Positions 22,921 through 46,367 of a DNA stretch of 64,000 nucleotides are shown here, piece after piece (position 1 is the first letter of the stretch; every line of letters begins with the position of its first letter). Location: NCBI GenBank assembly GCA_973895155.1, contig OZ316894.1, forward strand, positions 3,930,944-3,994,943. Reading direction: 5' to 3'. Origin of the DNA: Marsupella aquatica (Eukaryota > Plantae > Marchantiophyta). Under the pieces are notes generated by a model that saw only the letters and a program-made list of their open reading frames with translations, was not told the origin of the DNA and ran no database searches. The translations under genes and the position numbers were made by a program.

Positions 22921-24249
22921 TCAAATTAGGGTAATCTTGGTTGTCATACTAGAGGTCAGAAGTACCAAATGACTGGAAATGTGGTCTTTACAAAGGCTAT
23001 TGGGGGGTTCTCTTTGGAGGTACAAGGGAGTTCATTGGGTCATTTGTGAATTAAATGGTGCTTCAATCTGAGGACTAAACGTGGGGTCACTCACGCTGTC
23101 ATATTCGAAGCCATTAATGTTGGCATATTGGAGGTCATATAGTCATGGGAAGGCTCACTTATTAATGCTTTGGTGTAATGCTCTCAAAAACTCTTAGACA
23201 ACATAGCCTCATATGTAGTGGTCATGTAGCATGTAAGGGACCCTATAATTGTGCTTGAGTCATGAATGAGGGTTTCTCTCAATTGAGTCAGGAGTGGAGA
23301 GCTATTAAATGCTAATATTTGGATGAGTATCACTATCATATGGTGAGACAATAAGGTAGTCCAAAATGGTGTTCATGCATGCGGGTTATGGGTTTATATC
23401 GCGGGCATATATCGGACCTTTTATATCGCTAGCATCATTTTTTATATATAACATTGGTCCTTAACATTCTTGTTGGCACCTACACAAACAGCCATGACCT
23501 TATGGGGGGGGTCGTGACATTATGAGTTATTAACCTTGCCTTCCCTATTTAGGGCCTTATGGGGGCGTCCGGACCTTGTTATTAACCTCTATAGTCGGTA
23601 TTTCCCTAGGGCCTTATGGGGGGGGGGTTTACATTGTTATTAACCTAGTCTCAACTTCCCTAGGGCCTTATGGGGGGTCCAGACATGTGAGAGATATTGT
23701 CAGAATATAACCCTAATTAATGACCCACAATATCCACCATCCCCATCCAACAGAATACCTTACCTTTATGGGGTTTAGGGGTCCAGCATTAGGTTTTTCC
23801 CGCTAAGTGTTCTTGCGTACCAACAGGAGCCCTTTTTCCTGAAAAAACATCGAGAGGGCAACGCTCGATGTGCTCATTTCTTGGCATGCCTTTGTGTGCA
23901 CATTGCAAGGGCTTAGGGTTGCGCAGCGTTGTGCTCCATTCCACCAAGCTTCGACACCCTTCGAAGCGTTGGGCGAGGCATTGTTCGGGCAAGCATTGGG
24001 TGAGGCATTGTTTGAGTGAACCGTTGGACGTGGCATTGTTTTAGTGACCATTTGCAAGGTTTAGAGGAGGAGCTCCGACCCGAAGCCATTCAGGCTACAA
24101 TTGTTTTTGAGCTTGTTGCGCGCGGTCGGTGGAGCACCTCGGTAGGACTTGGGAGCTTCTTTGGAGGACCCTGCGCTTTGGAGGACATTCGGGCTTTGGA
24201 GTGCCCGATTGCAGGGTCAAGGCAATAGCTTCTTTACATTTGTCCTTGT

Positions 24250-24525
24250 TGCGGGTGAGGAGCGGAGGATGAGCTGCAATCGGCGATAAGCTGCGGGTGA
24301 GGAGCGGAGGATGAGCTGCAATCGGCGATAAGCTGCGGGTGAGGAGCGGAGGACGACCTACAATCGGCGATAAGCTGCGGGCGAGGAGCGGAGGACGACC
24401 TACAATCGGCGATAAGCTGCGGGTGAGGAGCGGAGGACGAGCTGCAAATCAGCGACAAGTTGCAATCAGCAGCAAGCTACAATCGGCAAGAAGCTGTGGG
24501 TGAGGAGTTGCAATCGGCGAGAACC
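24250..24525. repeat. 42-bp GC-rich tandem repeat, about 5-6 copies
   Basis: gcgggtgaggagcggaggatgagctgcaatcggcgataagct repeats; the minus-strand ORF shows a 14-aa periodicity. Confidence 0.9.
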
Positions 24526-24852
24526 TACAGGAGGTTCCATCAAGGAGCTGCGAGAACTTATATCTGTGGGAGCGAGTTTGGGCTGAGGTGCGAGAAGGTC
24601 AGTTGTGCAATTTTGCGCTTCTTCCCCTTCTGGCCATTTGTTCATTCTGCATTTTTGCTTTGCTTTTGCCAATGTGCTACCAATGTGCTGTCAGTCCATG
24701 AATCCAATGTTGCCTTCTTGTTCTGTTGCTTAGTGTCTGCTAGTATGCTTATGGCAATGACAGAGAAGCTCCGATTGCTAAGAGACTATTTGCTCTCTCT
24801 TTCTCGCTCTCTCTCTGTCCCTCTCTCTCTAAGTGCCTGAGTTTTGCACCAG

Positions 24853-24986
24853 TTTTTGAATGTCTACAATGTTGAGTTCCCTTTGCAGAGAAATGTGAAT
24901 GCAGTTTTCGAATGTCTACAATGTTGAGTTCCCTTTGCAGAGAAATGTGAATGCAGTTTTCGAATGTCTAGAATGTTGAGTTCCCT
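24853..24986. repeat. 52-bp tandem repeat, about 2.5 copies, following a CT-rich tract
   Basis: tttt(c/t)gaatgtctacaatgttgagttccctttgcagagaaatgtgaatgcag starts at 24853, 24905 and (partial) 24957. Confidence 0.85.
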
Positions 24987-26860
24987 GACGTGATGCGATG
25001 GAGCATCCTGGACGCGCACTGATTGAAGCAGTTGTGCGTGTCGTCAGCATTGTCATGGATTGGAGAAGGAAATCCCATAGAACTAGCCATTGCACTTTCT
25101 TGCACAATGCCTGCATTTCCTTCCCTGTACCATGCTAGCTCCACTGCGACCTTCCACTGCTATCTATGTTGATTCCTTCCACTGCTACAAAATTCTGCTT
25201 TGCAATGGCATCCCAATGCTCATATGTCCCAGTAAAATTCGGGTAGACATAAGTATTAGGCGCGGACTCTTCTCTCTCTGCCTGCCCAAGATCAGGGTTT
25301 ACTGGTTCTAATTGCTAATTCAGTCCCCATTTAGAAAGACCTAAGAAATTTAACTATCTTTGAGCTTTATTGTTTGTTTTGGCAAAATCTTCCCTTGCGG
25401 CCAGCAGCTGAGGCCCAGCGTCCACAATGTCCGATACATTTTTCAAGACATAAGTAAGCTGGCTGGGAAATGCCTTTCTCCTCAATCTCAAGAGATGATT
25501 TTTCTGGAGTCTGCTCACGTATTGCTCTTGCTTGTCCAGAACCTGAACGGCTATTTACCACAACTGAATCAAGTGCCCGAGTTCTGACCAAGTTGTCCTT
25601 TGTCTGTCTGCTGTTGATTTCTGATTGCTACTTGTTGGATTTGTCTGCTATGTTCAGTTCAGTTTGTTGTCTTGTTGTCGTCTGACAATCTTTGTGGTGC
25701 AAGGTGAGCTTGATCTCTTATTATTACAATGTAGTCCTTAGTTTTCCATTGTATGATGTTTTCCTTAGTCTGTCTATGTTCCTCAATGAATTGGTTTCCT
25801 TACTCTTCTTTTGACATCCCTCTGTATCATAGCCCTTTTCTTTTCTCTTTTTTTTACTGAAGAGAAGTGCAGGCATGTATGGTGAATCCTCACTTGATTC
25901 CAGCAGCGACTCTATAGAATTTTGTCGCCAAAAAGTTTCAGAGTTTCGTGTGTGGTTTGCCAACTGCTGTGCCACCTCAGAGAATTCCTTAGTGGCTTTT
26001 GTACAAGCCTTGCTCTTCAACTATGGTAATTTACAGCTAACTGTCTGATGTTCACACAACATCCATACACAACAATGAATACAACTCCATGAATACAGCC
26101 ACATGATTTCCTTTGGTCTGCAAACTGGACGAAACTAAACTAAAATCAGCTTGGTCAATTTTAAATTCTTCGTAAGGGTCTCTGACAGCAGCCCGGTATA
26201 GTCATTTGTGCACGAAGATAGAGTACGGTGCAGCTTTTGAAAAAGTGGGTGGACCAGCAGCTTGTTGAGAGTAAAGCAACTTATGGTTCTGTAACAGATG
26301 TGTGCAGCAGCTTAAGATGTAGAAGGCACACAATAAAACTTGATTTTTACAGATTTAAAAAAGGGCAGGGTGAGTGAGCACTGCATGTTGAACTCACAGG
26401 TCCGAATCTTGATTTGATTTCGCTGCTAAAATTCGTATCTCTTGCCTGAGTCCCAGTTTGCTGGAGTTTTGTTGCTCTCTGTGCTTTGTTGTGCACATTG
26501 TTGTGTTTGCTCTGTCCATTTTAAAACTTGAGAGCCAAATGAATGCTTTGCTGAAACTCAATTGCTATTTGTTCTGTGTTGCCCTTACAGATTTTAAAAA
26601 GGCAAGGTGAGTGAGCACTGCTGTACAGCAAGCAAAGGCATACAGGTTGCAATATTTGTGATTGCTTCCAATCATCTAGGCCAAGGTTATTTGCGCTGCT
26701 CAGTCCTAAATGCTTTGCCATCTATAAAGCATTGGTTTATGCTGCACCCTTGTGGTTACATGTCATATTTTATGCTGCACCCTCATTCTTTTGTGTCATA
26801 CTGCACCCTGTTATTCCTTCTTGTTTCACAATCTGATGTAGGGTCTGAGTGTGCAGGACC

Positions 26861-27520
26861 ATGGCTCGCAATAAGCAGAAGGCCATGAATCGTTGCAGAG
26901 GTGAATCCTCTCAAGCACCTCAATTGTCCTTATATTCAGACATTGAGATTAACCAGAATAGTCCACATGTATGTGCAATTTGTGATGAGGGAGGGGATCT
27001 CATTGTTTGTGATGGGCCTTGCCACCGACATTTCCATAAGAATGTTTCCTGTCCTTTGGGTCAGCAATGGCTATGCCCAACTATATCCCTCGCTGATGGC
27101 CATGTTGGAGAATGGCTTTGTGTTGATTGCAAGAATGAGGAACATTCTTGCTTTAAGTGCCATGTGTCTGGAAAAATTGGTGAAGAGGTAAGAAAATGTC
27201 CAGACTCTCTCTGTGCCCGGTTTTACTGTCGGCAGTGTTTGGTTCCTGGCACAGCATCATGTGGACTCCATATTTGTCTTACTTGTGGACAGGGGCCCAA
27301 TGATGGGGCTAATGGCTTTTTGGTTCAGTGCATGAGGTGTCCTAAGGCATGGCACAAAGACTGCCTGCTGTTTATCCAGCAGAGGGGATTTGCCCATGAT
27401 CGAACAATTTGGGATCACTCAGCGCATGGGCAGCCCAAGAAGGGGATGTTTTACTGTCCTGACCATGACATTGACCCTACACTAGGCACTCCTGCTAGGA
27501 GCCACATATCTTGGATTTGA
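26861..27520 (+). CDS. Stand-alone EDM2/NSD-type composite PHD-finger protein (219 aa) carried by the outer CACTA
   Basis: Uninterrupted ORF; the ATG is in an accATGG context just after a tgcag acceptor. CAICDEGGDLIVCDGPCHRHFH...CVDC.EEHSCFKC...CGLHICLTC...CMRCPKAWHKDCL...YCPDHDIDPTLGTPARSHI matches the EDM2 PHD module as I recall it, including the YCxxHxIDxxLxTPxRxH tail. Confidence 0.88.
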   Translation: MARNKQKAMNRCRGESSQAPQLSLYSDIEINQNSPHVCAICDEGGDLIVCDGPCHRHFHKNVSCPLGQQWLCPTISLADGHVGEWLCVDCKNEEHSCFKCHVSGKIGEEVRKCPDSLCARFYCRQCLVPGTASCGLHICLTCGQGPNDGANGFLVQCMRCPKAWHKDCLLFIQQRGFAHDRTIWDHSAHGQPKKGMFYCPDHDIDPTLGTPARSHISWI

Positions 27521-28117
27521 TTGAGGCTGGATGGAACACAAACTTGAAATAGAGCTTTTTGATGGTTTCACGTGGACTTAAACAATTTTCAGAGTGCTAA
27601 AACATGTGGACTATTTATATGCAGTTTGATGAACTCCTCATGTATACACACTCTACGACAGTGCATTGCGGATTGAGGCAATTAATTTTGAGAAATCAAC
27701 TTTATTATCTTTTCCAGGGTAGGATTCCGATTTTCAAGCATGTACTTTGAGTGTGACTTTCCTCCATATTGATGTCTAAACTTCACTTGTAAATTTGTCA
27801 CTGGTGTCACAAACGTTACTTATTCTAGACCTGTCTGCTCACATTCCTAATAGGCAAACAAATACTGGAAATGATGAAGCCACAGAGATTTACGTTCATA
27901 GTATCATTCTGATGACACTGTATGTGATGCTCTATTTGTATGCAAGGAGAAGGTGCCCTACTACAGTGGATTTGAGAAACTGGGCTCTGTGGGTTTGAGC
28001 AATTGGACTGTGGTTGGCATCGGTTGTACAACTGTGACGGTAGGCCCAATTTTGTATGCATGTCACTCTGATTAAGTTTGAAAATCATAGTTTGAATACA
28101 ATTTCAATCAAGCTAGC

Positions 28118-30911
28118 ATGGCACAATTGCCACAGAATACGTTAGGTGTGGGTAGAACTCCAAAGTTGCCGCTCTTCCATCCAGCTAGAGTACAACATCG
28201 TGATGATGCTTTGTGGGTTCGAGAACAGAAGGCCTGCCACAAGAGTGGGGACCATAAGATGTACTGCCCTTGTGTGAACTGCAAAGGGAATTATAGGACT
28301 AATCGGAATACTGCTAGACTGCACCTTATTAAACATGGTCGGTACCCTGCATGTCAAGTGTGGGTGGGAGAGGGACAGGACTCTTCTGATGAAGAGTGGG
28401 GTGCTGACTACATGCCACAACATGGCCCTGAGGCATTGAGGGTAGCAAACCTTCAGCAGGCAACCTGTGCACAACAGCCAATTGTAGATGTTGAAGAACA
28501 TTTATTTGTAGATGTTCCAGAGTATCCAACTGTGGATGTTCAAGAACATCCAACTATAGATGTCGAAGAACATATCAGGGCTCTACTGGAAGAAACGTTG
28601 CTGAGAACCAGTGAAGAATCCCCTGAGCATGAGCTAGATGATCAGGACCGTTTTGACTTGGATTTTGTACTTGGGGATGATGAGAGTGAAGGAGGTGCCC
28701 ATCCTGTAAACCCCCTTGAAACCTCCAAAACTCCTGTGGAGACTGATCCTGCACAGTTATCTTTAGATGCAGCAATGCAACCTTTGTTCCCAGGCAGCAA
28801 AATAGATGTTGTGTCATTCATGTTGCTTCTGCTGAACATCTGTCATGGCCATGGATTCTCAAACAAAGGAGTGAATGCATTGTTGTCTTTGATGGGGGAG
28901 CATGGTATGCCTACAGAGCATAATCTGCCCAAGAACTTATATGCTGCAAAGCAGCTATTGAGAAAGCTTGGCTTGGATTATGAGAGAATCCCTGTCTGTG
29001 AGAAAGGTTGTATGCTCTTTAGGGGTGAGAATGCCAAGTTAGAAAACTGTTTAGTGTGTCAGCAGCCCAAGATGAAGAGAGTGGGGAATTCATTACAGGC
29101 AAGGAAGGTAGTGCGGTATTTCCCTATAATTCCCAGGTTGAAGAGATTGTATGCCACTGCTGGTACATCTAAACTCATGACTTGGCATCATGAGAATAGA
29201 AGCACAGACAACATGGTTCGGCACGCAGCAGATTCAAAGGCTTGGAAGCATGTGGATACAAATATTGATCGGGAATTTGCAGCTGAACCAAGGAATGTGC
29301 GATTTGGGTTGGCACTTGATGGGGTGAATCCCTTTGGGAATAATTCCACAGCTTGGTCTACCTGGCCAATACTGTTGTTGAATTACAATTTACCTCCTTG
29401 GCTTACCACCAAGAAGTTCTTTGTCATGCTAGCTATGCTGATTCCAGGACCTGATTCAGTAACAGAGGAACAGCTAGACATAATATTGGGCCCATTCTAT
29501 GAGGAGTTGGAGCTGTTGTGGAAGAAAGGAGTGCCCTGCTTTGACAAATTGCCATGCCCAGGATTGTCTCAACACTTCAACCTTAGGGCTGTGCTATTGT
29601 GGACAATCAATGATTACCCTGCATATGGTTTAATATCTGGACAACAACACTCTGGATACAAAGGATGTGTCATCTGTGGACCAGAATGTGTGGCACGTGG
29701 TTCTAAGCACTTGCAGAAATTAGAGTACAGTGGCCACCGTCGATGGTTAGCAGCAAGGCATCTTTTTCGTAGACCAGATAGTGCACAATACTTTGATGGT
29801 GCAATTGAGAGTCGACCTGCACCGTGTAGAATGACAAGCTCTGATAGAAAGAAGTGGTCTGAAATGATGGCCATGCATCATTATATATTAGAGAATGAAG
29901 AGACAGTGGCTCCATGGTACAGGTACATAAACCCTAGAAACTCTCCTATCCTTAGGCATATGGATCATAATTATGTTGCCCCATTGTGTTTGTATATTCA
30001 TGGTGGATCGTGCACTAATGTCTTCAGTGTTGTTGTTGCCATGCAGGATATATGATGCTACCAATGAGACTGTTACCAAACAAAGAGTGGATTTCCGGAA
30101 GGAGTGGATGAGGAAGCCTGCCAATCGAAGAAAACCAGTGGAATTTCCCGTAGACTGCCAAGAATTGCCACCTTTCAGGGAATGGTTTCAAACATTAGTC
30201 AATACCCATAATTTTGAGAAAGAGTCTGAGCGGTCATTACTATCTGCATACTCCACACCACCTAGTTTGAAGGCACGACTGTATAGGGCATGTAGAGCCT
30301 ATGGGCACCATTGGAGGACTATTCCATCCTTGGGGTGTTTGAGTGATTGTGATTCTGGTGCTTTCAGCACTTTTGATTCTGGGATGGCTTCTACATTCAC
30401 TGAGAAGCGAGTGGACAGGTCTGGTGCAACCATAGAAGAATCTGTACAGTATGTAGGGGCCTTGACAGATATCTTGGTACTGAATTATGGCAGCTTGAGG
30501 AAAGAGGTGATTCTTTTCAAAGGGAAATGGGCAGATCCATCATGGACTCCTAAATCCTCTGCCAGTATGAGGTATACCAAGTCTGGTCTTTGGCAGGTGA
30601 ATTTCCATAGAGAACTGGGTGTGTCCAAGAAAATGGATTACGTTTTCCCAAAGCAAGTGGAGCAGGTTTTCTTCCACCCCAATGAGAAGGGGATAGCATG
30701 GAGAACAATCCTCCACAAAGAATCCAGGTCCACAAGGGTGTTAGGTGATTACACAGACATTGATTTCCATGCTACAATGGAAAACAATGCCAAATTACAC
30801 ATCGAATTGGCTAAGGCCTGTAGGTCCAGAGAAAATCCAGGACCAAGTACTGGTCCCAAACGAGGCAGAGATGCAGAGGGATCTGCAAGAAAGGGCAGGC
30901 CTAATCAGTGA
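28118..30911 (+). pseudogene. CACTA TnpD/Tnp2-type transposase of the outer element, internally deleted; exons 28118-29922 and 30047-30911
   Basis: N-terminal CPCVNC...HLIKHG, then VRYFPIIPRLK, VRFGLALDGVNPF and WTINDYPAYG. C-terminal LFKGKW...YVFPKQVEQVFF (DUF4216-like). A GT-AG intron at 29923-30046 joins the frames. The MHIE/KxHD/WMYxxER block is absent. Confidence 0.9.
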
Positions 30912-31002
30912 ATAGGTTTTAGCTAGGTGTGTGAAGTCCATAGATGGACTACATGTATGGACTATTTATGAAATCAGACTAATGGTTTACCCATTTGTGC
31001 AG

Positions 31003-34000
31003 TTGGTGAATGCAGCCTGTGAAAGGAAGATTGCAAGGGTTGTCACATTCTGTGAATCCTTATGAGGAGGCCCGAAATCGGAACATAGAGCATAATGTCA
31101 GAATTATGCGTGATCTAGGACTGGGGCCAGACTGCAAGCTGATGTGTGTGTTGATATGTCTATTGCAAATTTGATTTAGTAGATGGAGTTGTCAGGTTCA
31201 TGTTCTGTTTTCATATTCCAGATTGGTCTCATACTAGTATGGATCCTGTACATAAGTACTAGTGTTACGGTGTTGTAGATTCATTTTGCATGTATCTTTG
31301 ATCTGCATTGGTGTATGTTGATGATTGCTTTGTTCCTTAGAGGCCCAACCACACATGTACAACGAGAGAGAGGAAAGCCTGCTTTGGTGAAAGGTACTTC
31401 AACTGAAACATTGCCAAACAGGAGGAGCTCTAGACTATCAGAAGTTACCAAGGTGAACATGGCAGAGTTTGGTGATGATGGCTATGGTTCTCCTTCTGAG
31501 TATGACACTGAGGATTCTGACATTGGAGGATCAGAACCAGAGAGTGCACAACAGGTAATGCTTGAACTTCATCATCCTAATAGGAAGGGATCCTTGTCCC
31601 TTTTTCAAATTATATGTTGATATGCTTACGTTGTCCATGATGTAGGTACAGAAACAAAATCGTGGTCCTAAGAAGACTGGGCCTGGTGGAGGTGGGCTAG
31701 TGAGATGTTGGAAAGACCCAGACACTGGACTCTTATATGAAAGTGAGTGGATTGTACTGTTCTACTTTTCAGGTGTGTTTGGAAGTTGATATTCTACTTG
31801 GAAATGAAATTAATTGAAGTGCTTTGGTGTTGTGTGTTTGTTTAGTGGTTCCATCAGCATCTCAAGGCAGATCAGGTCAATCTGATGTACTACATTCCAG
31901 AGGATCTTCAGGTAATACACAATCTGCTCGTCATGCATATGCAAGTACATTTGCTCAACTTTTCAATCATGTACATATTTTTTGATTGAATGCATGTGTG
32001 TGCATTGCAGGAGGGGCCTCTGAGATGCGCAGGGAACGAAGGCATGCTAAGAAGCAGTTTGATAATGCTGCCAAACAACGAAGGGATTGCGGAGAGGTGC
32101 CCAAACACATTAAAGTGAGTATTGTACTTGTTTTGAATGTAGATTTAGACAAATCTGATCCTCTCTGTTGTTGTGTGTATAAAACCTGGACTCTGCATAA
32201 ATTCCAGAGTTATGATCTGACATTTTCTGTGAAATGCAGATTTATGACAATGATATTGATGATTCTGATGGCAACAAACAATACTGGCTGGAGGAACTTC
32301 GTGGCAACGTACTCAGAGTCTTTGATGTATCAAAGCCAAAATGGACTGATCATCCACAAGTTCATACAACCACTATGTGGAATAACATGGCAGCTGAGTG
32401 GGAGTATGTGGGTGGGGAATTTATTAACACCAAATTCCAGAGTCATTGTCGTGGCATATTGAAGAGAGAGCGCCATAAAATGCATGTTTATTGGAAGAAA
32501 GTTTGCAATGAGGATCCAACCAAACCTGGGCCATCTGGTGTTGATCCAAAGAAATGGGCAGCTTTGGTATCTCATTTTACCAGTCCAGCATTGATATCTT
32601 TGAGTAAACAGATGACTGATAAAAGAGCACGAGTGCAAGATACCTCTCACTTTGGAAAGGGAGGGCATGCTGCAGAAGCAAAGAGAATGGTAAATTGTCT
32701 ATCATTTTCACTATCAATTCTGTCTTGTTTGTGAATCTTGATGAAAACAAACTCTGTGATTTCTCATTCATTGTGTGTTTGAACAGAAGCAGAAGAGAGG
32801 ATCAAGCCCAGGTATATCTGACCTGAAAGAAAACCATGGTAGTCAGGGTTCATTGCCAAAGGTGACAATGAGCCCATCATTGGCAAGTGCAGAAGGTCAG
32901 ACTGGTAGTTTTGTGGGAGCAAAGGTGAGCCCATCATTGGCAAGTGGGGAGGGTAAAAGTGCTAGCTTACTGGGGCAAGGAAACAGACATGGATCAGCTG
33001 TGAGTATTGTCATACCAATTTGATTTGTACATCATTCTCCATTTGACAGAGCTAGTGTTGTGTCATTTGTAAGTTTGACAGTGAGACTGTTGTGTTGGTT
33101 TGTGGTTCATTTACAGACCCCACATTCAAAAGAAGAGATCACTGCCATTGGGGCTGTGAAATTGGATGTCGCTGAGTTGAAAGGCACTGTGAGGGAGTTG
33201 ACAAACATGATGACTACGTGGATGGCACATCACCCCAGTAATGCACAAGTTCCAACAGTTGTGCCTAGTCACAGTAAGTTGACTACAACTACCAAACAAG
33301 GTAGTAGAAAGCGATCTCTTACTTTTTCAGGCGATAATGAAGGTAAAATTCTCTATCATGTATACACTGTCCATTCAATGTAATTATTGTGATGTGTATA
33401 TGTCATTGCATGTTTATAATGTTCTTGCATGTTTTTAGTGTGATTATATGTTGCTGGTGTATACATGTTTGTTTATGCATTTCTTTTGTGTGTGTTTTAT
33501 GACAGCATCTTTAGGGGAGCCTCCTGTGTCGCAGGGAAGACCAACTGACACAGCTAACAGTACTCTAAAGCAAACTGAATTGGAAGTGAACCTTTTGCCA
33601 TCTAAATTGCCCAAAGAAGCCATTTCAGATGCCTTTCAGTTGCCAGAGGATAAGTCGACTCAGTTGACACCAGATGTAACCCCAGAATCATCTGAGTTGC
33701 CAAAAGAAACTCCCATTCCAAGTGAACAAGATGACACTCCATCAACTAGAAAGGGAAAGAAGAAAAGGAAGAAAGGATCCTCAGCAAATGCATCACCTGC
33801 ACAGAAGAAACCAATGCAGTCTTCTAAACCCGTTGCAAAGGTAAATGTGTGTTTGATTTGAGTGTTCTTCTATCTTTCAATTTCTGTTTATTGCATTTTT
33901 AACAAAATGTGTTGTTCACAGTTTGCAAGAGGAGATTTGGTGAAGATGAAGAGCGTTGTGGACAATTCCATGATAGTGGTAGAAGGTGAGGTGACAGGGC

Positions 34001-34182
34001 TGCCAGGAGAAGATAAGTTTCATTGTGCAGATTTTGAAAGCCCTTTCTTGTGAGTGCGTGTGATTGAAGTGTTTGTAGATGTGGCATTGCCATTTGCCAA
34101 TTCAGGGGAGAACCAGTCTAAATTATCTGATGTGAAAGGGATGAATGCCCTATGGAACTCTAGATTGCTTAAGAAGCAATAG
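31003..34182 (+). pseudogene. Multi-exon CACTA TnpA/ORF2-like accessory gene of the outer element; exon boundaries approximate
   Basis: NPYEEARNRNIEHNVRIMRDLGL near 31053. KPGPSGVDPKKWAALVSHFTS...TSHFGKGG resembles Ptta/En/Spm transposase_24. Coiled-coil and basic NLS-like segments follow. The C-terminal VVEGEV...VRVIEVFVDVALP...ALW domain has an in-frame TGA at 34051. Confidence 0.72.
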
Positions 34183-34399
34183 AAATAGCACTCTATCAAG
34201 AAACAATAGACATGATAGAATGACAACTCTGTTTTTCTATAAACATGCAGAGTGATTGGTATGTCAGGTTGTAACAATTGACAATCTAATATTATTGATG
34301 TCAATGTAATTTTGTTTCATAAATTTGCATTGAGTTCAATATTTACCGTGAGACTTATGAAGGTATCTTGTATGAATATCACACTACTACATATTTGCC

Positions 34400-34940
34400 A
34401 ATTTTGCGAAGGCGTTTTACAAGAGGAAGAAAGCTTTGCAAGATTAATCTCATCGCTAAACTTGCGATACGATATGCATTGCACTTAGCGAATCTACACA
34501 CATCGCAACACATAATTGCGAAACTTAGACCATCGCAACATTTTACCACACTTTAGGTATCGCAAAACATTTCCGAAGCAATTACCATTGAACAAGTTAG
34601 CGATCTTTACCGCTTCGCAAATTCATTGAGATGCGCCGGAAAACTAAATGGTTGCGAATATTTAAGCATCTCAAAATATTTTGCGAGTCTTATTGTCTCG
34701 CAAATGAGCGATGTTTGTGGAATATATGGCTAACTTGCGATAGTAATAGGCTCGCAAATCCTGTGCCTATCTAGGGTCTCATTTTGTGAATGTTTTGGTT
34801 TCGCAACTTTGAGATGGTGGTATCTTCGGAAGTTTGCGATGAGGGGATGATGGCAATTAGGGAGCAGTTAAGTATCGCAAATGTAGCGATGAGTTTGCGG
34901 GTGTAGGGGTTTCGCAAGATGTTTCGCAAAATATTATGAG
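34400..34940. repeat. Left subterminal TCGCA/TGCGA array of the inner CACTA
   Basis: Many tcgca, ttgcga and agcga motifs in both orientations, mirrored at 44790-45260. Confidence 0.85.
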
Positions 34941-35735
34941 CGCTTCAAAGAGGTGGAAAAGGAATGGGATTGGGGAGGGAGGGTAAAGGAGGGTGGATAC
35001 ATGTAATTTTTAGGGAGGGACAATGAAAAGGAGGAGGAAGGGAATGGGGCTAGGAGGGACAAGGAACGGAGGGATCCAAGAGGGAGGATACAGGTTTAGG
35101 GGGCACAAGGAAATGAGGGAGGAGGAAGGGTATGTGGATATAGTTTTAGGGAGGGTTTGGATTTAGGGAGTGAAAATAAAAGGAGGGAGTTTAGGGTTTA
35201 GAGAGGGACAAGGAAAGGAGGGAGGGTATTGGTTTAGAGAGGGACAAGGAAATGAGGGAGGTTTAAGGGTATAGGTTTAGGAGGGAGGAGAGAAGCTAGG
35301 TTGTATAGGTAAGAGTGGGGGACAGGGGTGGAAAGTAAGGAAAGTATAGGGTTGAAATAGAAAGCCAGGGGTTGGGACAAGGAGAGGAAGGAGGAAGGAG
35401 GGTTTAATAAGAGGGACAGACAATGAAAGAAAGGAGGAGGGAGGTGGGTACAAGTAATAAGGAGAATAGCTAGGGGGGGATTAGGAAAGCATGGAGGATA
35501 GAGGACTACAAGCAACATGAGTTTTCTTTGCATAAAGTCTACCAAAAGGTGTGGTGAGTGTGGGGTAGGGATGGGAGATATAGAAAACAACATTTGAAAA
35601 TGATATACTTACAAAACATAAGTTTATTGATAATTGAGAAGCACATATTTCTCCATTCTACCGAGAAGAGAAATCTTCATATCATCAAATCGAACTATAT
35701 ATCCGTGTAGCTATATATCCACAAACACAGACCCC

Positions 35736-38700
35736 TCAAACTTGGTCCTCATCATCTTCAGGTTGGGACACAACCAGAATATCAGGCTTTTCCCCAACGA
35801 TTGAACGAGACCGTGGCACATATGTGATGACAAGTGACCATTCCTCTGGGTTTGGGGGGTATGGAATATAGAAACATTGTTCCACATGACTTGGAAAAGT
35901 GAACGGCTCTGATGTTTGCCAATGAGATGGCTGGAAACTAGTGGCAGACGTCTTCAGTCGTGTAAATCCACACTCATCTTGAACCACAGTAGGATTGTTA
36001 CCTGCAAGGTTCACTTTGAACCACTTGCACTTGAAGACATACTCTTCAAACTTTGATTGTGCATCATAAGATATCACTAGAATCTCTTCTACCTTTCCAT
36101 AATGTGGCACAACATCTCGAATTATATTTGTGTCATGGCGACTGCTGCGGGAATCTTGAGAGAATTGTCCTTGAACTCCACAATCAAAGGTACGACCCCT
36201 CTTCTCATCAAGGGAAGAAATCCTAAAATCCATCAAACTATAAGGATATGTTACACAAAAATAGACACAAACATATTCCAATTAATTGAACACACCAAGA
36301 ATCTGCCTCTTCAATATACGTGCTTGTATTACAAATGAATTAAATTAAACCAAGTGATTCAAATCAAAGGTTACTAAGGTAGATGGAGATCACCTGAAAT
36401 GTCTTCCTTGTGTCCACATTGCTGTCCTTGTTGTAACCACTCTCAAGGGACCATGAACAATGGTACGAACATCATCTGTGATAGCCGGAAAATGTAATAC
36501 ACTCTCTCCCCTGACCACCATGTCATCCACCTCAACTAACTTCTCCTTCATATAGTCAAGGTACTTTGGAAAAATCCTTGGTCTTGTGCTGTTACTTTTG
36601 GCATCCTCATAGAAATCCCTCCATTCTTCCATGATAGTGTTGTTACTCAACATGAATGTGGTCAGTTGTTTCACCTCCACTGGTGTCAACATGCGAGTTT
36701 TCCTAGCACTTGTTAAACGATCCTCTTCATCTTCCCTCTCCTCTACCCAAGTACGGGGAGAGGTACAATCAATTGTGGCCAATATGTTACTACAATAGAA
36801 CATACTCTCAGCTGCTAAGTATCCTGTAGCCATGCTTCCCTCAACCCGTGCACGGTTACGTACATAACCTTTTAACACTGCCATGTATCGTTCTAGCCAA
36901 TACATCCACCGACAATGCACAGGACCTGCAATGGCCACCTCATGAACAAGATGAACAAGTAAATGCACTTGACAGTCAAAAAAGGAAGCAGGAAGGGCCT
37001 TCTCCAACTTGCATACCACCTCTGCTGCCAAAACCTCCATCCCAGGGATCTCATCAGTATATATCTCCTTAGAGCATACCCATCTCAATAGTTTTCCCAA
37101 TGACCAAAGGGCATCTTGCACTTCTTCACTTGCCAAACCTATTATGGCCACAGGCAATATGTGCTGCAATAACCTATGGTAGTCATGTGTCTTGAGATAC
37201 CTTGGCCACTTATGATTGTCCTCCATCCCAAAGGCCTTTCGGAGATTGGCACCATAACCAGTAGGAAACCGCATGTCTCCTATGCGATTCTGAAACTCCC
37301 TTCTCTGGCCAATAGGAAGCACCCATGGAGCTGAAGGTCGATGCTCGATCCCTGTGATAGGATCACTTATGACCCACATGTCTGGATGCATCTCAAGATC
37401 CTCACAAGCCTCCCTGAAGTTAGTGTCTTTCTCTCCATAGAAAGCCTTTATCAAAGCCTTTCCCATATTTCCCTCAATGTGCATGGGGTCTAATAGATGG
37501 CGGATCTTCAACTCACCCCAATAGGGCAAAGTGGTTAATATACTCCACCTTGTCAAGCCACTACTGTCAAATTGCATGGGATCCTCTGGGTCTACCACTC
37601 TTGCAGCCATGTCTTTCCAGTGTGTAAAAGTTGTTGGCTCAGGTACATCATGCTCGTCACCAAAGGGCATATCAATAGAGGAAAATAGTAGTGGGTCACG
37701 CCTCATCTGATGTCCCATTGGAAGAAACTTTGTATGCCCAAGATAAACAATCTTGCGAAGATGTGATGAATACTTGGCTACATCACCAAGGCTTGGGCCA
37801 CAAGTGGAGCAAGCCTTGTAGCCTTGGGTTTGCAACCCACTCACAAAGCCAAATCCTGGTCATATAAACACACATTATGTTAGGATTAGCACATGGAAAT
37901 GAGGGGATACCATGCATTAGAATATGATGCATTTAAACAACAAAGTTCTTACCTGGGTAGTCATGCATGGTCCACATACAAACCCCTTTGAGTTTGAAAA
38001 CCCGTGGGGTACCCCCTGTAGTCTTTCGACCATCATATGCCCATACTCCTTCCCATAATTTCTGGAGTTCCTGAACCAGTAATGTCAAATAGGTGTCCAT
38101 GTTCTTCACCTTCTTTGGCCCTGGGATAATCAAAGATAGCAACAAAAAACCCTTTTTCATGGACAACCATGGTGGAAGGTTGTAATTCATGAGAACCACA
38201 GGCCAGACCGATGTAGGTCTCCCCTTCCCTCCAAGTGAATGAGGGCTAACTCCATCTGATGCCAACCCCAGTCGCACATGCCGAGGGTCACGCTCAAAAT
38301 CTGGCCATGTTGATTCCACATGTTTATGAGCAGGAGAGTCAACTGGTAATCGCATGACACCAGGCTCCGAACGATGTTTCTTGTGCCATACCATCAACTC
38401 GGCCAAGTCAGAACATCTATACATGTGCAACAAGCGAGGAATTATGGGGAACCAACGACTGCTTTCCTTGGTACCTTCTGGGTTAGCATGTTTGGCTCAT
38501 ACCGTGGCTCATGACACACTGTGCATTCTGTGATATGGGCTGTATCCCCATGAAATAACATGCAATCATTCACACAGGCATGAATAATATGGTAATCCAT
38601 ACCAATGGATGAGAGAACCTTCTTTGCATCCTTCCAGGTCCCTGGCAACACATTCTCCGAGGGTAACATCAAGTCATGACAATATTCAAATATGTCTGAT

Positions 38701-40506
38701 AACATAGAATTGCTTATCTTGTGTTTGGCTTGAATGTTCAAGAGCCCCAATATGGCAGAAAGACGGCTCAACCGAGCACCCTCAAAAATAGGTGTTCGAG
38801 CATGTTCCTCTGCCTCTTTCCATTGTTGTTGTCCCTCTGGAGTATGTTGTGGCCGTGGGTCATTTGAAGGGCCAACCTCATGACCAATGTGAGGCACATC
38901 ATCCTCAACATCGGCACCAAACCAATCAACCATGAAGTCATCCATGGCTCTATCTTGATCATGCATGACCTGGTCATCAGTCCGAGGTGCGGCTTCCTCA
39001 TCAGCACCACCTACATCATTACTTGATGAGGAATCACCCTCTGATGGTTCTCCCTCTTCTGGCATACCCATCTCCCGATATGTTGCTCTCAACCTTCGTG
39101 GTAACATTTGTTGAGATGGTTGCGCATTCTATGCACATTACAACCAAAAAACCTCCTCATGTATATTTGACCAAGTACAACAAATTAAAATAGACTTAAC
39201 ACCATTCATTCAAGACATTAAGAATTAAAGTAAATGCATGGGCTAAAACCTTATTACTCCAAAATGAGCCCAAAGGCCATATATATAATAGTAAATGGGA
39301 AGTCCAAAATAGGTGCAAGAGGATAAAGGACATGATTTCCTAATCCCACTCATAGTGTGTGAATAACTCATCTCCTGCTCTAATGGTCCTAGTAGCAAGA
39401 ACTAAGCAATGGTCCTTATGATATGTCGTGCCATATGGTGCCGGCATTGGACCATCAGTAAAAACCCACTCACAATTGGCCCTACGCTTGGGCCGAGTCC
39501 CCACAGTACTATTTATGAAACCAGCAATATTCCCATTACGTATGGGATCACCATCTATCACCCGCTGCTCACTATACCTTCTAGTGCTACCATCAAAAGT
39601 ATCCATCTCTAGAGCATATGTTTTCCACTCAGGATGTTGTGCAAGGATCATGTTCCAATGTCTTCTCTTGTAGATGGGTCCACCGTATGGGAACAAAGTA
39701 GGACCCTCTCTACCACGAACACTTGACCCACCCTCCTCATCCATGATGATATCCTCACAAGCAAATACTCCATATCCATGTCTCTCTCCAAGTGTGGAAG
39801 TTTTCACAATCCAACGTCTACCCCAAACCACAATCTCCTCATCAAAATCTGTAAAATAAGGCAAGCCAAGAGTGATAGGTTCCCAATCCTTGATGATAGA
39901 GGCACACTTGCTAGTGAATGAACAAACACCCCACCTACCCTGAACTAGTGTTCTGGATGGGTCATTGGGTGCTCGTGGCCTCCTGTTGGATTGGGGCCTA
40001 GACCGGGGTCTTCGTGTCTCAGTGGGCACATGAGGGTGTTCCCCTTCTGTCCCATGACTGGTACTAATTCCCAAACCCAAGGCTTGTGAAAGTGCATTGC
40101 CTATAGCATCTAAAACTCCTTGTGATGGGACATAGGGTGGTGGTGTCACCAATCTACGCATACTGGATCCCTATTCCATGCAAACACCCACAAACAACCA
40201 AATGTGTAAACCATATGTGTAAACATTGATTCACCTCTAAAAATAACAGTAAAGAACGGCAATCAATTGAAACAAACTTACCATATGGGATGAAGAAGCC
40301 CCGGGAGTAAGACCTCTATGACGTCCATATCTCTCAATATGTTGAGCACACACATAAGATTTTTGAGAAATTTGGCCCACACATCTGGTGCAGTCATAAA
40401 GTCTTCGGGGTGGACCACGAGGACCAGTAATCTCGGGCTGAGGAGGAGGGGGTATATCATCATCGGAGGAGTACTCACTACTGGATAGTTCAGAGGACGA
40501 GGACAT
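35736..40506 (-). pseudogene. TnpD/Tnp2-type transposase of the inner CACTA; predicted exons 40506-40282, 39128-37953, 37855-36394 and 36222-35736; one frameshift near 38457
   Basis: Motifs VRLGLASDGVSP, WTMHDYPG, LDPMHIEGN, LKTHDYH, HLLVHLVHEV, WMYWLERYM, FKCKWF and EPFTFPSHVEQCFY. All three predicted introns are GT-AG and preserve frame. Restoring 1 nt gives VRWFPIIPRL. Confidence 0.9.
39340..40506 (-). CDS. SET-domain protein (putative lysine methyltransferase) of the inner CACTA; exons 40506-40282 and 40170-39340
   Basis: STLGERHGYGVFA (motif I), PYGG, IDG...GNIAGFINS...ANC (NHS-like) and LATRTIRAGDELFTHY (ELxxDY-like). No post-SET cysteines. The SET exon is uninterrupted, and a phase-0 GT-AG intron at 40281-40171 links it to the upstream exon. 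Confidence 0.85.
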
Positions 40507-40639
40507 ATCCACTGCCACATTACATTGCATGTAGGGCATGATTAGGAAAAATTAGGCCATATATAAAGCGATTTAAAAAAAAATGAACTCAAAAAACAAT
40601 TAGGTTGGTTTATACATGGGGTTTTATTACCCTTTTATA

Positions 40640-41680
40640 TTTGTTAGCATGAAACCCAAATTAAGGTGAGTGTCATGCAAGAAGAAACCACATTATAACC
40701 TTTGGGAAAATTGTAATACCCTATGTCCTAAGTGAGGTTAGATTATTACCTGAATGAGACCCGGGCTCAACAGTGCCTATAGGTCACGTGGCTTTTGGAA
40801 CATTTGCCAAATCTAGAAGTAGGAGGAAAATACTGGAAACAAAATATAAGTTTGGATGGTAATTAGCAGCCGTCAAGTTGTGGAATCTTAGACATTTACC
40901 CACATATATCATGGCACAACAAAGAAGGGCAAGCATAAAAATCTGTACTAACAACATTGACTGTATACATGATGTTATACCTTTTAGATGCCCGGGTTCC
41001 CACAATGCATATGCATTAGACAAAAGTTGAGGTAGTAGTGTTGGCCCTGCGTTGTATCATGATTACATGGGTTTTCCCCTCAATTGTTAGCATAAAACCC
41101 TAAACCCTAAACCCTTATCCCCCCTCGAGTGAAAGGTGAGTGTCATGCAATAAAAACCCACCCTAGACCCCTGGGAAAACTCTAAAGGCCTAAGCCCAGA
41201 ATGAAGTTGGACAATAATTACCTGAATGAGATCCGGACTCAATAGTGCCTGTAGGTCGTGTGGCTCATTGAACATGAGCTGAATCTAGAAGCACGAGGGA
41301 AAATACTGGAAACAAAAAAGTAAGTTTGGATAGCCATTAGCTTCTCTCAAGTTGTAGACCCCCAAACATGTGCATATAGATATTCTTGCACAACAAAGAA
41401 GGGCAAGGTTTATGAACAATCTCTTTATCAAACCCTGCTAACATACATGTTTAAATATACCTTTTAGATGTCCGGGTTCCCACAATGCATATGCATTAGA
41501 CAAAAGTTGAGGAAGCAGTGATGGTCCTGCACTGGATCATGATTACATGGGATTTCCCTCAATTGTTAGCATAAAAACCAAAACCTCATCCCGCTTCAAG
41601 TGAAAGGTGAGTGTCATGCAATAAAAACCCACCATAGACCCTTGGGAACTCTAAAAGCGTAAGCCAATGAAGTTAGCAAA
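40640..41680. repeat. About 450-480 bp tandem duplication, about 2.3 copies, in the divergent-promoter region of the inner CACTA
   Basis: ttgttagcat...aaggtgagtgtcatgcaa occurs near 40641, 41084 and 41563. cccacaatgcatatgcattagacaaaagttgagg occurs twice. Confidence 0.85.
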
Positions 41681-42418
41681 AACCTAAATGGTCAATTCCC
41701 TTCAACCATCCTATGCTTCTCTCTACCATAATTATATGCCACCCCTCTTGGTTACCCTCCTAAGATACCATAAAAGTAACCCAAGATACTATAAAACTGA
41801 AACCTCTCTTTCAAACCCTCCTAAGTTGGCCTAAACCCCAAAACCCAAAACATAAAACCCCTCCTAGCTCTTACCCTCCAATACATATAACCCCAACCTT
41901 CATAAATAAAACCCCCCTGCAAACCCAAAACATAAAACCCCTCGTATCTAAGCCAATCTAAGCCCAACCTTCACAAAAGAAACCCTCCCCTAACCAGGCC
42001 AAACCCCCTCCTCTTACCCTGCAATATAACTCCTTCAATTTTCTAACCCCCCCAATCCTTATCTCATCACATCCCACTAAAATGCAACATAATCCTCTAC
42101 ATCTACCCCATTTAATGTTCATAAGCCCCCTTAGTATCCCTAACAACACATCAAATACGCATGCGAGACGGGGGTTATGGCAAAACCAAACAGCGAAGGC
42201 TTTTGCGAATCTTGAAGCTTCGCAAAGATAGAATTTGCGAAGCTTTTTGCGAAGGCCGATGCATCGCAAATTGCGATGCGAAACGAATCGCAAAGCCCAA
42301 TATTTTGAATCCTTATGGATTGCCAAGCGCGGACAAGGCGGATTCAATTCATTCAGGCCTGAGGAGAGCAACGAGGGCAAGGGCGGAGCGATGGCGAGCG
42401 AAGAGGGGACTGGTGGTG

Positions 42419-44544
42419 ATGGAGGAGCTTCTGGCAGCAGCGGAGGCAACCGAGGGGGGGGGGGATCGATTGAAGGCGATTGTGGATGAGCATTTTTCGG
42501 TTGCACAGTTGAGTCAAATTGATTTCACCAGTCCAGCAGGGCTGGCATCATTGAGTGCCCTTCTGGGCCAAGCCTTGCAAGCAGGTCTCACTGCAGGGCA
42601 AGCAGCAGTGGAGGAGGATGCAAGGAAGGCAGCAGAGCAGGCGGCTGCTGAGAGGAAGCGAAAGAGGGACGAGAGAGCTCAAGCTGGAGTGCTCTTGCCT
42701 CAAGCATTGGAAAAGAAGAGGAGGAAAGATGAGAGAGACCTGATCAGGAAACAGAGGGAGGAGCAAAGAAAGAAGGAGGCAGCAAGGAGGAAGCTGCCTC
42801 TGATTACTTTAGAGGATGAGGGGATTCCCACCGAGCTTGCTTACAATGGGGCCAAGAGCACAATCAGGCACATTGTATCCACAAATTTTGCAAGAGGAGT
42901 CGAGTGGGGCACTCGCTCAAAGGCAGAGCAGAAGCGAGTCATCAATCAGGTGAAAGATGCATTTCGAAATGGAGGAGAGATGGATTCACAGTGGCTTGCT
43001 GACAAAATTTCAAACTCCATGTCACAAGCTAGATACCATGATAGAATGAAGATCAGGTCTCACCTTAGAGATTTGGAGGAGTATAGGAATTTGCAGAGGC
43101 CGCTGCAATTCTCATAAGATATCTGGCAGGCCTTCTACCAGACAGAGGTGAAGTTGAAAGCAGCCAGGCTCCTCAATGATTTCACAGAGAAGCTGACAAA
43201 GGCTCAAAGGGCAAAGGAGGCCGGGAAGTCTGACCGGGACCTGAAGGTGATGGAGCAGAAGGTAGCCCAGCTCCAGCAGGTTGTAGCAGAAGTAGGCGAT
43301 CCACCCAACAAGTTCCTGAAGGCAGCTGAGCGAGTCCGAGACAAGCCCAACATCACCCACAAGCTGGGTCAAGGTGGCCTCCCCGGCCTCAAAGCAGCAT
43401 TCGTGAGTGCACCTCCCTCTCCTCCCTTGACTTCTTGCTACTCCAATTCGTATTCCAACACACCTGCAATGAGCCAACTCTTTCTTGCATTTCCACCAAG
43501 TAGTTACAATTAGACTTGTTGTGTCAGATTAGGTCACGTACAGTTGCTTCCCTCTCGGGTTTTTGCCATGACAGAGTTTGCGATACATTTGCGATGCGGG
43601 TAGCTTCGCAAATCCTTCGCAAACCTTATTATGCCCTTTTTTTGCTTACGTTTGTGAAGGCGTTGCGAAGACGTTCGCATTGCAACCAGCTTCGCAAACG
43701 TAATTGTCCTTATGATTGCGAAGCTGGCGCCTTCACAAAATTTCAAAAATTTGAATTTTTAAATTTTCCGATCGTTTAAGTGTTCTTTGAGGGTCTTCCC
43801 CATATATGCCACCCTCCATAACCCCAAAACCTTGATGCACCACCCCACCAGCCCCAACAAACCCCCTAATTTTTAGAAGCCATGTGAATCGGGTTATGGG
43901 TTGGTGTTAACCCAATTGTGCTGGTTTTGTTTTGGCTTAGTACAAGAGGTACAAGAGGAAGATTACGGCGGCTGAGATGGAGGTGGGCCAGAAACATGGG
44001 AAGGAGCATCTCTTTCAGCAAGTTGATGAATTATTGGTGAGAATTTTTAGGTTATTACATTCATTGCAATTTTGAATGAATATCTCTTTTGTTCACACTT
44101 GTAAAGAATATGAGACTAACAGACACCCTGGTTTGCTAATGGAAGCAGGGAGGGGAGGATGGTGACTCCCATACCGAGGGTGGCACCGATAGTAGTGATG
44201 AGGATGTGGAGGGGACAGGGGAGGGGAGCACAGCTCCTGCTACTCAAGCCAGGCCAACTAGCACTGGAGACCAGTCATTTGCATCAGCACGTTCCAGTGG
44301 TGCTAGGGGTGGTAGCGCGGCAAGCCAGGGCGGTGGAGGTGGGGATGAGGATGAGGATGAGGATGAGGGTGACCCCGAGGGTGACCAAGAGGAGGAGGAA
44401 GTCCAGATTGCACCCCCCCCCAAGAGCACACAAGGGCAAGGAGAAGGCCAAGGGGAAGAAGGCAAGGAGGGGCAGGAACACTCCTTTCTAGCTCGATGTA
44501 GACAAGTTGTAGCTAGAGCACTTACATCGAGTTCACATGTATAG
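42419..44544 (+). pseudogene. Probable TnpA-like accessory gene of the inner CACTA, divergent from TnpD; exons about 42419-43402, 43941-44035 and 44149-44544; premature TAA at 43115
   Basis: Coiled-coil/basic N-terminus, RPLQFS*DIWQAFY, ITHKLGQGGL (resembles the HxxGxxG of Ptta-type proteins) and an acidic Gly-rich tail. gtgag donors and ag acceptors are present. Confidence 0.65.
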
Positions 44545-46145: not shown

Positions 46146-46367
46146 AATATTTGTTTTCTACTAGTGCAAGTAGAGTAACTTAACAATATGTAATTTCTGT
46201 ATATGGGTTACTCAATCCTGTTATGGTTACGGCTTAATTCTAGTTAACCCTTAGTTAACCTTAAATGGTTTTTAGGGGGACACCTATGGTTTTAGGTGAT
46301 TGTCTAGAATTTCCCGCTGAGTATCTCATATGGATAGCAGAAATTGTAGTCCCCAAGACTAGAGTCA

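What the first reader, a model, noticed from the sequence alone, without database searches (positions are those of the whole stretch)
26861..40506. Candidate system: two CACTA families each placing a chromatin gene (reader or writer) at the 5' end of the transposase unit
Seen: the outer element has motif arrays, then PHD, TnpD and TnpA. The inner element has different motif arrays and SET inside TnpD, with a divergent TnpA-like gene. In both, the chromatin ORF is uninterrupted while the transposition genes carry lesions. Known: TE-encoded anti-silencing is described for VANDAL/VANC and Spm TnpA, and CACTAs are known to capture host fragments. I do not know of a description of EDM2-PHD or transposase-spliced SET cargo, but could not search. 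Inference: convergent acquisition of histone-mark tools by CACTAs, paired with family-specific cis arrays.
Basis: partly seen in the sequence, partly recalled or inferred. Interest (0 to 1): 0.9.

Follow-up and report, generated by a model that had tools for sequence, protein, structure and literature searches.

The report
CACTA transposons with spliced-in chromatin genes
Two cut-and-paste transposons, one nested in the other, each carry a chromatin-type gene (a SET methyltransferase-fold exon that sits at the same spot in moss and liverwort relatives, and an EDM2-like PHD-finger gene that is likely family-wide), and these genes likely help the elements alter or sense their host's silencing marks.

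Summary
The anatomy is real. A Copia element holds an outer CACTA (17946-46166, TSD CAA), which holds an inner CACTA (34382-45279, TSD TCA). The SET is not fused into the transposase: it is an exon with its own stop inside TnpD intron 1, predicted to be an alternative last exon that shares TnpD's zinc-finger exon 1. The layout recurs in a Sphagnum-type family and in Riccia gene models; SET is under purifying selection between families (dN/dS about 0.2) and keeps its catalytic Tyr. The outer element carries a stand-alone EDM2-like PHD gene at about the family's depth (roughly 30 copies). SET cargo is already known in HarbingerS, MuDR, Helitron and Plavaka (EnSpm) elements, so this is a new variant: land-plant CACTAs, shared-exon design, EDM2-type reader. 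No RNA or activity data; anti-silencing is inferred. The scan noted a SET-carrying EnSpm-like element in another genome before.

The parts
11716..46712 (+). Copia LTR retrotransposon that hosts the outer CACTA; LTRs 11716-12050 and 46378-46712
   Evidence: 328 of 335 LTR bases identical; gag-pol read in the sequence
17946..46166 (+). Outer CACTA element, TIR CACTAG.AGAAAACA, TSD CAA
17946..23100 (.). Outer 5' subterminal AATGAC array, with an 83-bp tandem array (18334-18841) and a 570-580-bp tandem array (about 19000-23100)
24250..24463 (+). GC-rich 42-bp tandem repeats, likely in the 5' untranslated region
   Evidence: role inferred
26353..26606 (+). Two near-identical predicted 5' UTR mini-exons (26353-26369, 26591-26606), AG before and GTGAGT after each
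   Evidence: sequence; no RNA
26861..27520 (+). Stand-alone 219-aa EDM2-like PHD-finger ORF; predicted acceptor at 26841
   Evidence: one contig of depth 701 spans it
28118..30911 (+). Outer TnpD (Transpos_assoc, Transposase_21, DUF4216); internal deletion near 29856 in this copy
   Evidence: loose ends at 29855/29857 in run X1
31010..34182 (+). Outer TnpA-like multi-exon gene
   Evidence: sequence; family assignment from recalled motifs, no Pfam hit
34382..45279 (-). Inner CACTA element, TIR CACTAC.ACA, TSD TCA
   Evidence: empty-site joints
34382..34960 (.). Inner TCGCAA subterminal cluster (TnpD 3' side)
   Evidence: 17 vs 0.6 expected
35736..39128 (-). Inner TnpD exons 2-4 (39128-37951, 37859-36393, about 36217-35736); frameshift near 38457 in this copy
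   Evidence: other copies carry one more base there
39340..40170 (-). SET exon, 276 codons, phase-0 acceptor, own TAG; predicted alternative last exon in TnpD intron 1
40282..40506 (-). Exon 1 shared by SET and TnpD: Ser/acidic leader and C-x2-C...H zinc motif like the Transpos_assoc region of the outer TnpD; phase-0 GTAAGT donor
42150..42300 (.). TCGCAA cluster between the two divergent genes
   Evidence: 7 vs 0.5 expected; same place in Sphagnum-type loci
42411..44544 (+). Divergent TnpA-like gene; stop at 43115-43117 in this copy (sense codon in 6 of 6 loci read there); TCGCAA cluster in its intron (43560-43720)
   Evidence: family inconclusive
44780..45279 (.). Inner TCGCAA subterminal cluster (TnpA side)
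   Evidence: 18 vs 1.0 expected
45280..46166 (.). Outer 3' subterminal AATGAC array
   Evidence: 22 vs 1.3 expected

Best explanation
These are two ordinary-ended, multi-copy CACTA families that each keep a chromatin-domain accessory gene inside the transposase transcription unit: the inner family is predicted to splice one exon 1 either to a SET last exon (351-aa protein) or past it to the transposase (about 1,100 aa), and the SET protein is likely an active lysine methyltransferase that likely works on the element's own chromatin to ease silencing, while the outer family likely makes a stand-alone EDM2-type PHD protein that would read or mask repressive histone marks. Shown: ends, nesting, exon order, conserved splice sites and stop, SET fold and motifs, constraint between families. 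Inferred, with my odds: two isoforms are made (0.8); SET is catalytically active (0.7); its substrate is a histone (0.55); it is brought to the element by TnpA bound at the TCGCAA clusters, through the shared exon 1 or the helix that opens the SET exon (0.35); the net effect is anti-silencing (0.45). PHD is family-wide (0.85), shares 5' UTR exons with TnpD and TnpA (0.6), binds H3 tails (0.6). The motif arrays are TnpA sites, not cargo sites (0.8).
For: Layout: 32 of 38 peat-metagenome SET loci also hold exon 1 (18), TnpD exon 2 behind SET (23) or the divergent gene (10), always in the window's order; they are essentially one family, L001 being 96% identical to Sphagnum jensenii P0001. Introns differ from the window's, yet the stop one codon after YEW is kept in 24 of 24 anchored loci, the GT donor in 10 of 10, the SET acceptor in 23 of 25 and the TnpD exon-2 acceptor in 21 of 22. 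Public gene models of Sphagnum and Calypogeia join exon 1 to SET and end there; Riccia models P0095, P0120, P0122 hold this SET (whole or part) before Transposase_21. Family: 152 clusters at 50% identity; G132 97%, G134 95%, N220 90%, E268 99%, Y273 98% among representatives covering each site (n 81-113). Fold: pLDDT 77.5, SET fold, Z 12.1 at rmsd 2.5 over 124 residues. Selection window vs moss-type: SET dN/dS 0.20-0.24 (CI 0.13-0.37), TnpD 0.13, TnpA-like 0.16; codon model rejects omega=1 for SET, 2dlnL 26. PHD: best long relative is an EDM2-like protein, E 2e-20, 29% over 224 columns, through the C-terminal C..H...TP.R.HI motif; 3 stand-alone homologues of 213-225 aa, 53-83% identical; single-contig depth 701 vs 800 (TnpD), 750 (TnpA) and 21.7 for host DNA in run X1. 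Context: TnpA-Spm1 binds CCVTCGCAAA clusters, removes CG methylation only at termini and leaves H3K9me in place (bioRxiv 2026.08.24.746577), which leaves room for a histone-level helper.
Against: No RNA evidence for either isoform; the exon joins are gene-model predictions. No activity or substrate evidence; the nearest folds (Set1, SET8, EZH2, SET7/9, NSD2, LegAS4) tie within about 1 Z unit, so even the sign of the mark is unknown. The His of the usual NH motif is Ser in 92% of the family and there is no post-SET region; LegAS4 also lacks that His. Among 9 moss-type copies SET evolves neutrally (omega 0.96), as does TnpD (0.90); counting estimates put SET nearer neutrality than TnpD (0.87-0.97 vs 0.57-0.62, p 0.07-0.12). 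Lesion density is the same in SET and TnpD. The PHD lacks the acidic residue that EDM2 has just before the first Cys, and nothing shows that its 3 homologues are transposon-borne. Depth is a rough proxy, and X1 is probably the window's own source (0 differences over 13,155 bases). Distant SET relatives in Ginkgo, Adiantum and Calypogeia have no shown link to a CACTA.
Confidence: 0.5

Rival explanations
1. The SET protein is a functional regulator of the transposition machinery, methylating TnpA, TnpD or a host non-histone protein, or acting as a methyl-independent competitor through the exon 1 that it shares with the transposase.
For: Shares exon 1 with TnpD; minimal SET without pre- or post-SET regions, as near to SET7/9 and PRDM folds as to H3 enzymes; no match to a host histone methyltransferase at E<0.001.
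Against: SET cargo recurs in unrelated transposons together with DNA-modifying domains, which points to chromatin; the catalytic Tyr is kept at 98%, against a pure competitor.
Confidence: 0.2
2. The cargo dampens rather than frees the element, or steers insertion: SET lays a repressive mark and PHD tethers the transposition complex to heterochromatin, which would favour nesting in other transposons.
For: Both elements sit inside other transposons; EDM2 binds the silencing mark H3K9me2 (PMC7529245); EZH2 and G9a are among the fold matches.
Against: One locus cannot show a target preference; the PHD is a separate protein with no shown link to the transposase.
Confidence: 0.2
3. Both genes are neutral passengers amplified with their elements.
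For: Neutral evolution and equal decay among moss-type copies; PHD has no DNA-level selection test.
Against: dN/dS about 0.2 between families, motif conservation across proteins 30-45% identical, kept splice sites and stop in diverged introns; post-insertion neutrality applies equally to TnpD. More open for the PHD than for SET.
Confidence: 0.1

Closest known systems
Plavaka elements (EnSpm/CACTA superfamily) of red algae, accessory gene PAG2 (bioRxiv 10.1101/2025.02.11.637652; passages)
   Same: A SET domain carried as a fixed accessory part of an EnSpm-superfamily element over long times.
   Different: PAG2 is a separate gene fusing an N6-adenine methylase to SET; here SET is an exon inside the TnpD gene of a canonical plant CACTA, with no methylase. 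Homology of the two SETs not tested.
HarbingerS and oomycete MuDR families with SET genes; Helitrons with SET (cited in PMC12730594; the Repbase Reports themselves not seen)
   Same: DNA transposons that carry a SET-domain gene; function untested there too, as far as the passages say.
   Different: Other superfamilies and hosts; no shared-exon design mentioned.
Spm/En TnpA-TnpD system (bioRxiv 10.64898/2026.08.24.746577; abstract, passages, section 4)
   Same: Alternative splicing or separate genes for TnpA and TnpD; family-specific motif clusters at the termini; the inner core TCGCAA lies within the TnpA-Spm1 motif.
   Different: No SET or PHD product there ('SET domain' 0 and 'PHD' 0 occurrences); anti-silencing works through host DNA demethylases.
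EDM2 of flowering plants (PMC7529245; passages)
   Same: Colinear atypical PHD region with its C-terminal motif.
   Different: The element's gene is the PHD block alone, 219 aa against about 1,200, without the N-terminal and methyltransferase-like domains.
VANC of VANDAL (MuDR) and TET/JBP-carrying fungal EnSpm
   Same: Transposon accessory genes tied to escape from silencing.
   Different: DNA-methylation level, other folds; VANC binds DNA motifs itself.

Membership tests
CACTA/EnSpm | CACTA terminal inverted repeats | tested here: met
   both elements
CACTA/EnSpm | 3-bp target site duplication | tested here: met
   CAA and TCA; empty site of the inner element
CACTA/EnSpm | TnpD transposase (Transposase_21, DUF4218, DUF4216) | tested here: met
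   DUF4218 deleted in this outer copy
CACTA/EnSpm | Subterminal motif clusters | tested here: met
CACTA/EnSpm | TnpA-family second gene | tested here: inconclusive
   no Pfam hit, hhalign 0.1%, low-confidence model; position, constraint and recalled motifs only
SET-domain lysine methyltransferases | SET fold | tested here: met
   Foldseek E 2e-7, Z 12.1, rmsd 2.5, 124 aligned
SET-domain lysine methyltransferases | GxG cofactor motif and C-terminal catalytic Tyr | tested here: met
   95-98% conserved; Y273 in register with the end of the SET8 and SET7/9 alignments (residue roles recalled)
SET-domain lysine methyltransferases | NH motif | tested here: inconclusive
   Asn 90%, His replaced by Ser 92%; LegAS4 also lacks the His
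SET-domain lysine methyltransferases | Methyl transfer to a histone lysine | not testable with these tools
   needs an assay
A named host histone methyltransferase class (Set1, SET8, E(z), SUVH, NSD, ATXR5) | Class-specific sequence and flanking domains | tested here: inconclusive
   fold scores tie; profile search of solved structures gives E 0.25 at best
EDM2 proteins | Atypical PHD block with C-terminal motif | tested here: met
EDM2 proteins | N-terminal domain and methyltransferase-like ELP domain | tested here: not met
   219-aa ORF; alignment with P0050
EDM2 proteins | Binding of H3K9me2 chromatin | not testable with these tools
   needs peptide arrays or ChIP
Plavaka PAG2 | Separate gene with N6-adenine methylase fused to SET | tested here: not met
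   only SET is found by Pfam in the window ORF and in 48 relatives bar transposase or unrelated parts
VANC-type anti-silencing system | Accessory protein binds own motifs and causes hypomethylation | not tested
   no binding data; arrays are better explained by TnpA

The most novel reading that the evidence does not exclude
An old land-plant CACTA lineage encodes its own class of minimal histone methyltransferase as a splice alternative to its transposase, docks it on TnpA at its own ends and rewrites the local histone mark; a second lineage uses an EDM2-type PHD as a decoy or reader. The choice between the near (cargo) and far (transposase) last exon would be a chromatin-sensitive switch: first disarm silencing, then transpose. 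The SET lineage may also have moved between peat mosses and leafy liverworts.
Probability: 0.25. Interest if true: 0.88.

Novelty: new variant of a known kind. Interest (0 to 1): 0.62.

Why it matters
Plant transposon anti-silencing is known at the level of DNA methylation (TnpA, VANC); published TnpA activation leaves H3K9 methylation in place. A constrained, transposon-specific SET clade wired to the transposase's first exon in mosses and liverworts gives a concrete, small, assayable candidate for counter-silencing at the histone level, in plants whose transposons carry H3K27me3 or H3K9me2. It also warns annotators that many 'SET domain-containing proteins' of Sphagnum, Calypogeia and Riccia are CACTA exons, not host genes.

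Tried and rejected
No whole genome is held, so no genome-wide census or enrichment test. Run search: no RNA holder listed; the four runs laid were contigs with intron cover and no splice joints among the rows shown, so nothing on expression. In-frame SET-TnpD fusion: rejected on phases and the kept stop; fused public models (P0021, P0095, P0120, P0122) show linkage only and three of them drop part of SET. Intact-cargo contrast: rejected. Cargo-specific arrays: rejected as the simpler reading. phmmer of SET against solved structures: 0 hits. Inner TnpA-like fold: single-sequence model pLDDT 60.8, only generic helical matches. PHD in viral contigs: 1 weak 40-residue match, ignored. PHD fused to a transposase: not found among 1,323 longer candidates, weak evidence. 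Complex prediction of exon 1 plus helix with the TnpA-like protein was not available, and the Atlas did not answer for SET or TnpA: no verdict. P0176 (an S-layer protein) was dropped as a false hit before the motif count; L005, L038 and three apparent duplicate loci were dropped from the within-family count. Literature: ten searches listed no paper on SET or EDM2-PHD cargo in plant CACTAs; Repbase Reports, subscription journals and the supplements of the two bioRxiv preprints (which list curated EnSpm families) could not be seen and may hold such families.
Full report
Observation. The region is a three-level nest. A Copia element with LTRs 328 of 335 identical holds an outer CACTA at 17946-46166 (TSD CAA), which holds an inner CACTA at 34382-45279 (TSD TCA). 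Contigs from 3 of 4 public runs join 34378 to 45280, so most outer copies lack the inner element and the nesting is particular to this copy. Pfam finds NSD-type PHD fingers at 26861-27520, Transposase_21 in both elements and SET at 39340-40170 on the minus strand. The outer ends carry AATGAC clusters and the inner ends TCGCAA clusters, 17 to 28 times the Markov-shuffle expectation.

SET anatomy. Exon 1 (40506-40282) holds a zinc motif like the Transpos_assoc region of the outer TnpD and ends at a phase-0 GTAAGT. Both the SET exon and TnpD exon 2 open with phase-0 acceptors. The SET exon ends in TAG, 212 nt before the TnpD acceptor, and its 5 consensus-like internal donors are all phase 1. The prediction is two mRNAs: exon1-SET (351 aa) or exon1-TnpD (about 1,100 aa). 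It is not a SET-transposase fusion. No RNA was available to show this.

The layout is a family trait. A metagenome scan gave 38 SET loci; 32 of 38 also hold exon 1 (18), TnpD exon 2 behind SET (23) or the divergent gene (10), in the window's order. They come from few samples and are essentially one family, L001 being 96% identical to a Sphagnum jensenii protein, so they count as one independent case. Their introns are unlike the window's, yet the stop is kept in 24 of 24 anchored loci and the donor in 10 of 10, the SET acceptor in 23 of 25 and the TnpD acceptor in 21 of 22. The TCGCAA clusters recur at the same four places, and CACTAC termini were found in 4 of 11 loci examined on the TnpA side. 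Named gene models of Sphagnum and Calypogeia join exon 1 to SET; three Riccia sorocarpa models place SET or part of it before Transposase_21. A profile search finds 152 clusters at 50% identity, with distant members in Calypogeia, Ginkgo and Adiantum whose context is unknown. Thirteen of 191 hits show the exon-1 zinc motif; one, P0056, is a single ORF on a 2.1-kb Logan contig, at most a weak hint of a spliced transcript.

Is SET functional? The model (pLDDT 77.5) has a SET fold; the best matches tie among Set1, SET8, EZH2, SET7/9, NSD2 and LegAS4, so no substrate can be read off. Across representatives the two Gly, Asn220, Glu268 and Tyr273 are 90-99% kept; the His of the NH motif is Ser in 92%. 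Window against moss-type copies: dN/dS 0.20-0.24 for SET, 0.13 for TnpD, 0.16 for the divergent gene; a codon model rejects neutrality. Among 9 moss-type copies both SET (0.96) and TnpD (0.90) are neutral, as expected for decay after insertion, though counting estimates put SET somewhat nearer 1 than TnpD (p 0.07-0.12). Selection therefore acts on the propagating lineage.

The lesion contrast fails. In the loci SET has 47 lesions in 23.2 kb (2.0/kb) and the TnpD exons 1.4-2.5/kb; paired test 26 of 86 lesions in SET, p=0.31, although the loci were picked by SET motifs. In the window, three lesions miss the cargo with p=0.6. Other copies in the runs carry one more base at 38457 and extra sequence at 29855-29857.

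PHD. The ORF aligns colinearly with the PHD block of an EDM2-like protein, E 2e-20, including the C-terminal motif that NSD proteins did not cover, but lacks the rest of EDM2. Three stand-alone homologues, 53-83% identical, are known only from Logan contigs; their context is unknown. In run X1 one contig spans the ORF at depth 701, beside 800 (TnpD), 750 (TnpA), 506-607 (inner element) and 21.7 for host DNA: roughly 25-35 copies of each family, with PHD in most outer copies. The tool warns that depth is no copy number, and X1 is probably the window's source; runs X3 and X4, under a second organism code, also show high depth over the PHD. Acceptors before PHD, TnpD and TnpA and two upstream mini-exons suggest one promoter with alternative last exons; this is inference.

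Arrays. Clustered family-specific motifs at the termini are what TnpA binds, and the published TnpA-Spm1 motif CCVTCGCAAA contains the inner core. The arrays need no cargo to explain them. The divergent gene is conserved and constrained, but its assignment to TnpA stayed inconclusive.

Mechanism. I commit to accessory chromatin genes co-expressed with the transposase: SET a likely active methyltransferase, likely aimed at the element's chromatin through TnpA, PHD a likely reader or decoy of the marks that EDM2 reads (EDM2 binds H3K9me2 and promotes full-length transcripts across transposons). Confidence 0.5 for the whole, about 0.9 for the architecture. Rivals: non-histone regulation of the transposition proteins (0.2), self-damping or targeting to heterochromatin (0.2), neutral passengers (0.1, mostly for PHD).

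Known and new. SET accessory genes are described for Plavaka (EnSpm superfamily), HarbingerS, oomycete MuDR and Helitrons, TET/JBP for fungal EnSpm, and host-domain co-option for Arabidopsis En/Spm. Ten library searches listed no paper on SET or EDM2-type PHD cargo in plant CACTAs or on the shared-exon design; Repbase Reports and preprint supplements were not visible. Papers were seen as passages, one also as abstract and section 4; the others only as search listings. An earlier AI note reports a SET-carrying EnSpm-like element in a dinoflagellate, unchecked. Verdict: new variant of a known kind, interest 0.62. 'Convergence' rests on two acquisitions; enrichment is untested.

Noticed in passing
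window 35736-40506 vs L017, L001; P0001, P0002, P0045, P0054: Possible moss-liverwort horizontal transfer: TnpD dS 1.10 (CI 0.94-1.33) between the window and the Sphagnum-type family; Calypogeia and Sphagnum SETs 63% identical, Riccia 37-45%; AU test rejects a Calypogeia+Riccia clade, p=3e-5, group named after seeing a tree. Old paralogy is the alternative; no host-gene dS for comparison.
   Followed up: partly
window 39343-39972: SET core has lower dS (0.63-0.69) than TnpD (1.10) and the divergent gene (1.24) between the same families: exon exchange between families or constraint on splicing signals.
   Followed up: no
window about 40075-40125 (-) and about 42520-42600 (+): The amphipathic helix that opens the SET exon recurs in distant members and looks, by eye, like an Ala/Gly-rich helix near the start of the divergent gene; a possible docking surface.
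   Followed up: no
window 19000-23100: A 570-580-bp unit repeated about seven times inside the outer element, rich in the AATGAC motif.
   Followed up: partly
window 40663-41106 and 41133-41585: Tandem duplication (359 identities, 80 mismatches) in the divergent promoter region; this spacer is about 0.8 kb in Sphagnum-type loci and 1.9 kb here.
   Followed up: no
window 34382-34960, 44780-45279 vs 26800-40550: CpG observed/expected is 1.3-1.7 in the TCGCAA clusters and 0.2-0.3 in the coding bodies: CG-bearing sites are kept while the body is depleted.
   Followed up: partly
P0108, P0116 (Calypogeia), P0155 (Ginkgo), P0187, P0190 (Adiantum): Distant members of the same SET clade; multi-copy in Adiantum, one model beside retroelement sequence. 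Other transposons or domesticated genes?
   Followed up: no
window 12662-12766: Inverted pair of telomere-like TTTAGGG runs in the Copia leader.
   Followed up: no
window 1675-2439, 52764-53813, 55925-56431: Host genes by eye: a RING-CH-like exon, a C-terminal RING protein, and an NBP35-like exon (names recalled, not searched).
   Followed up: no
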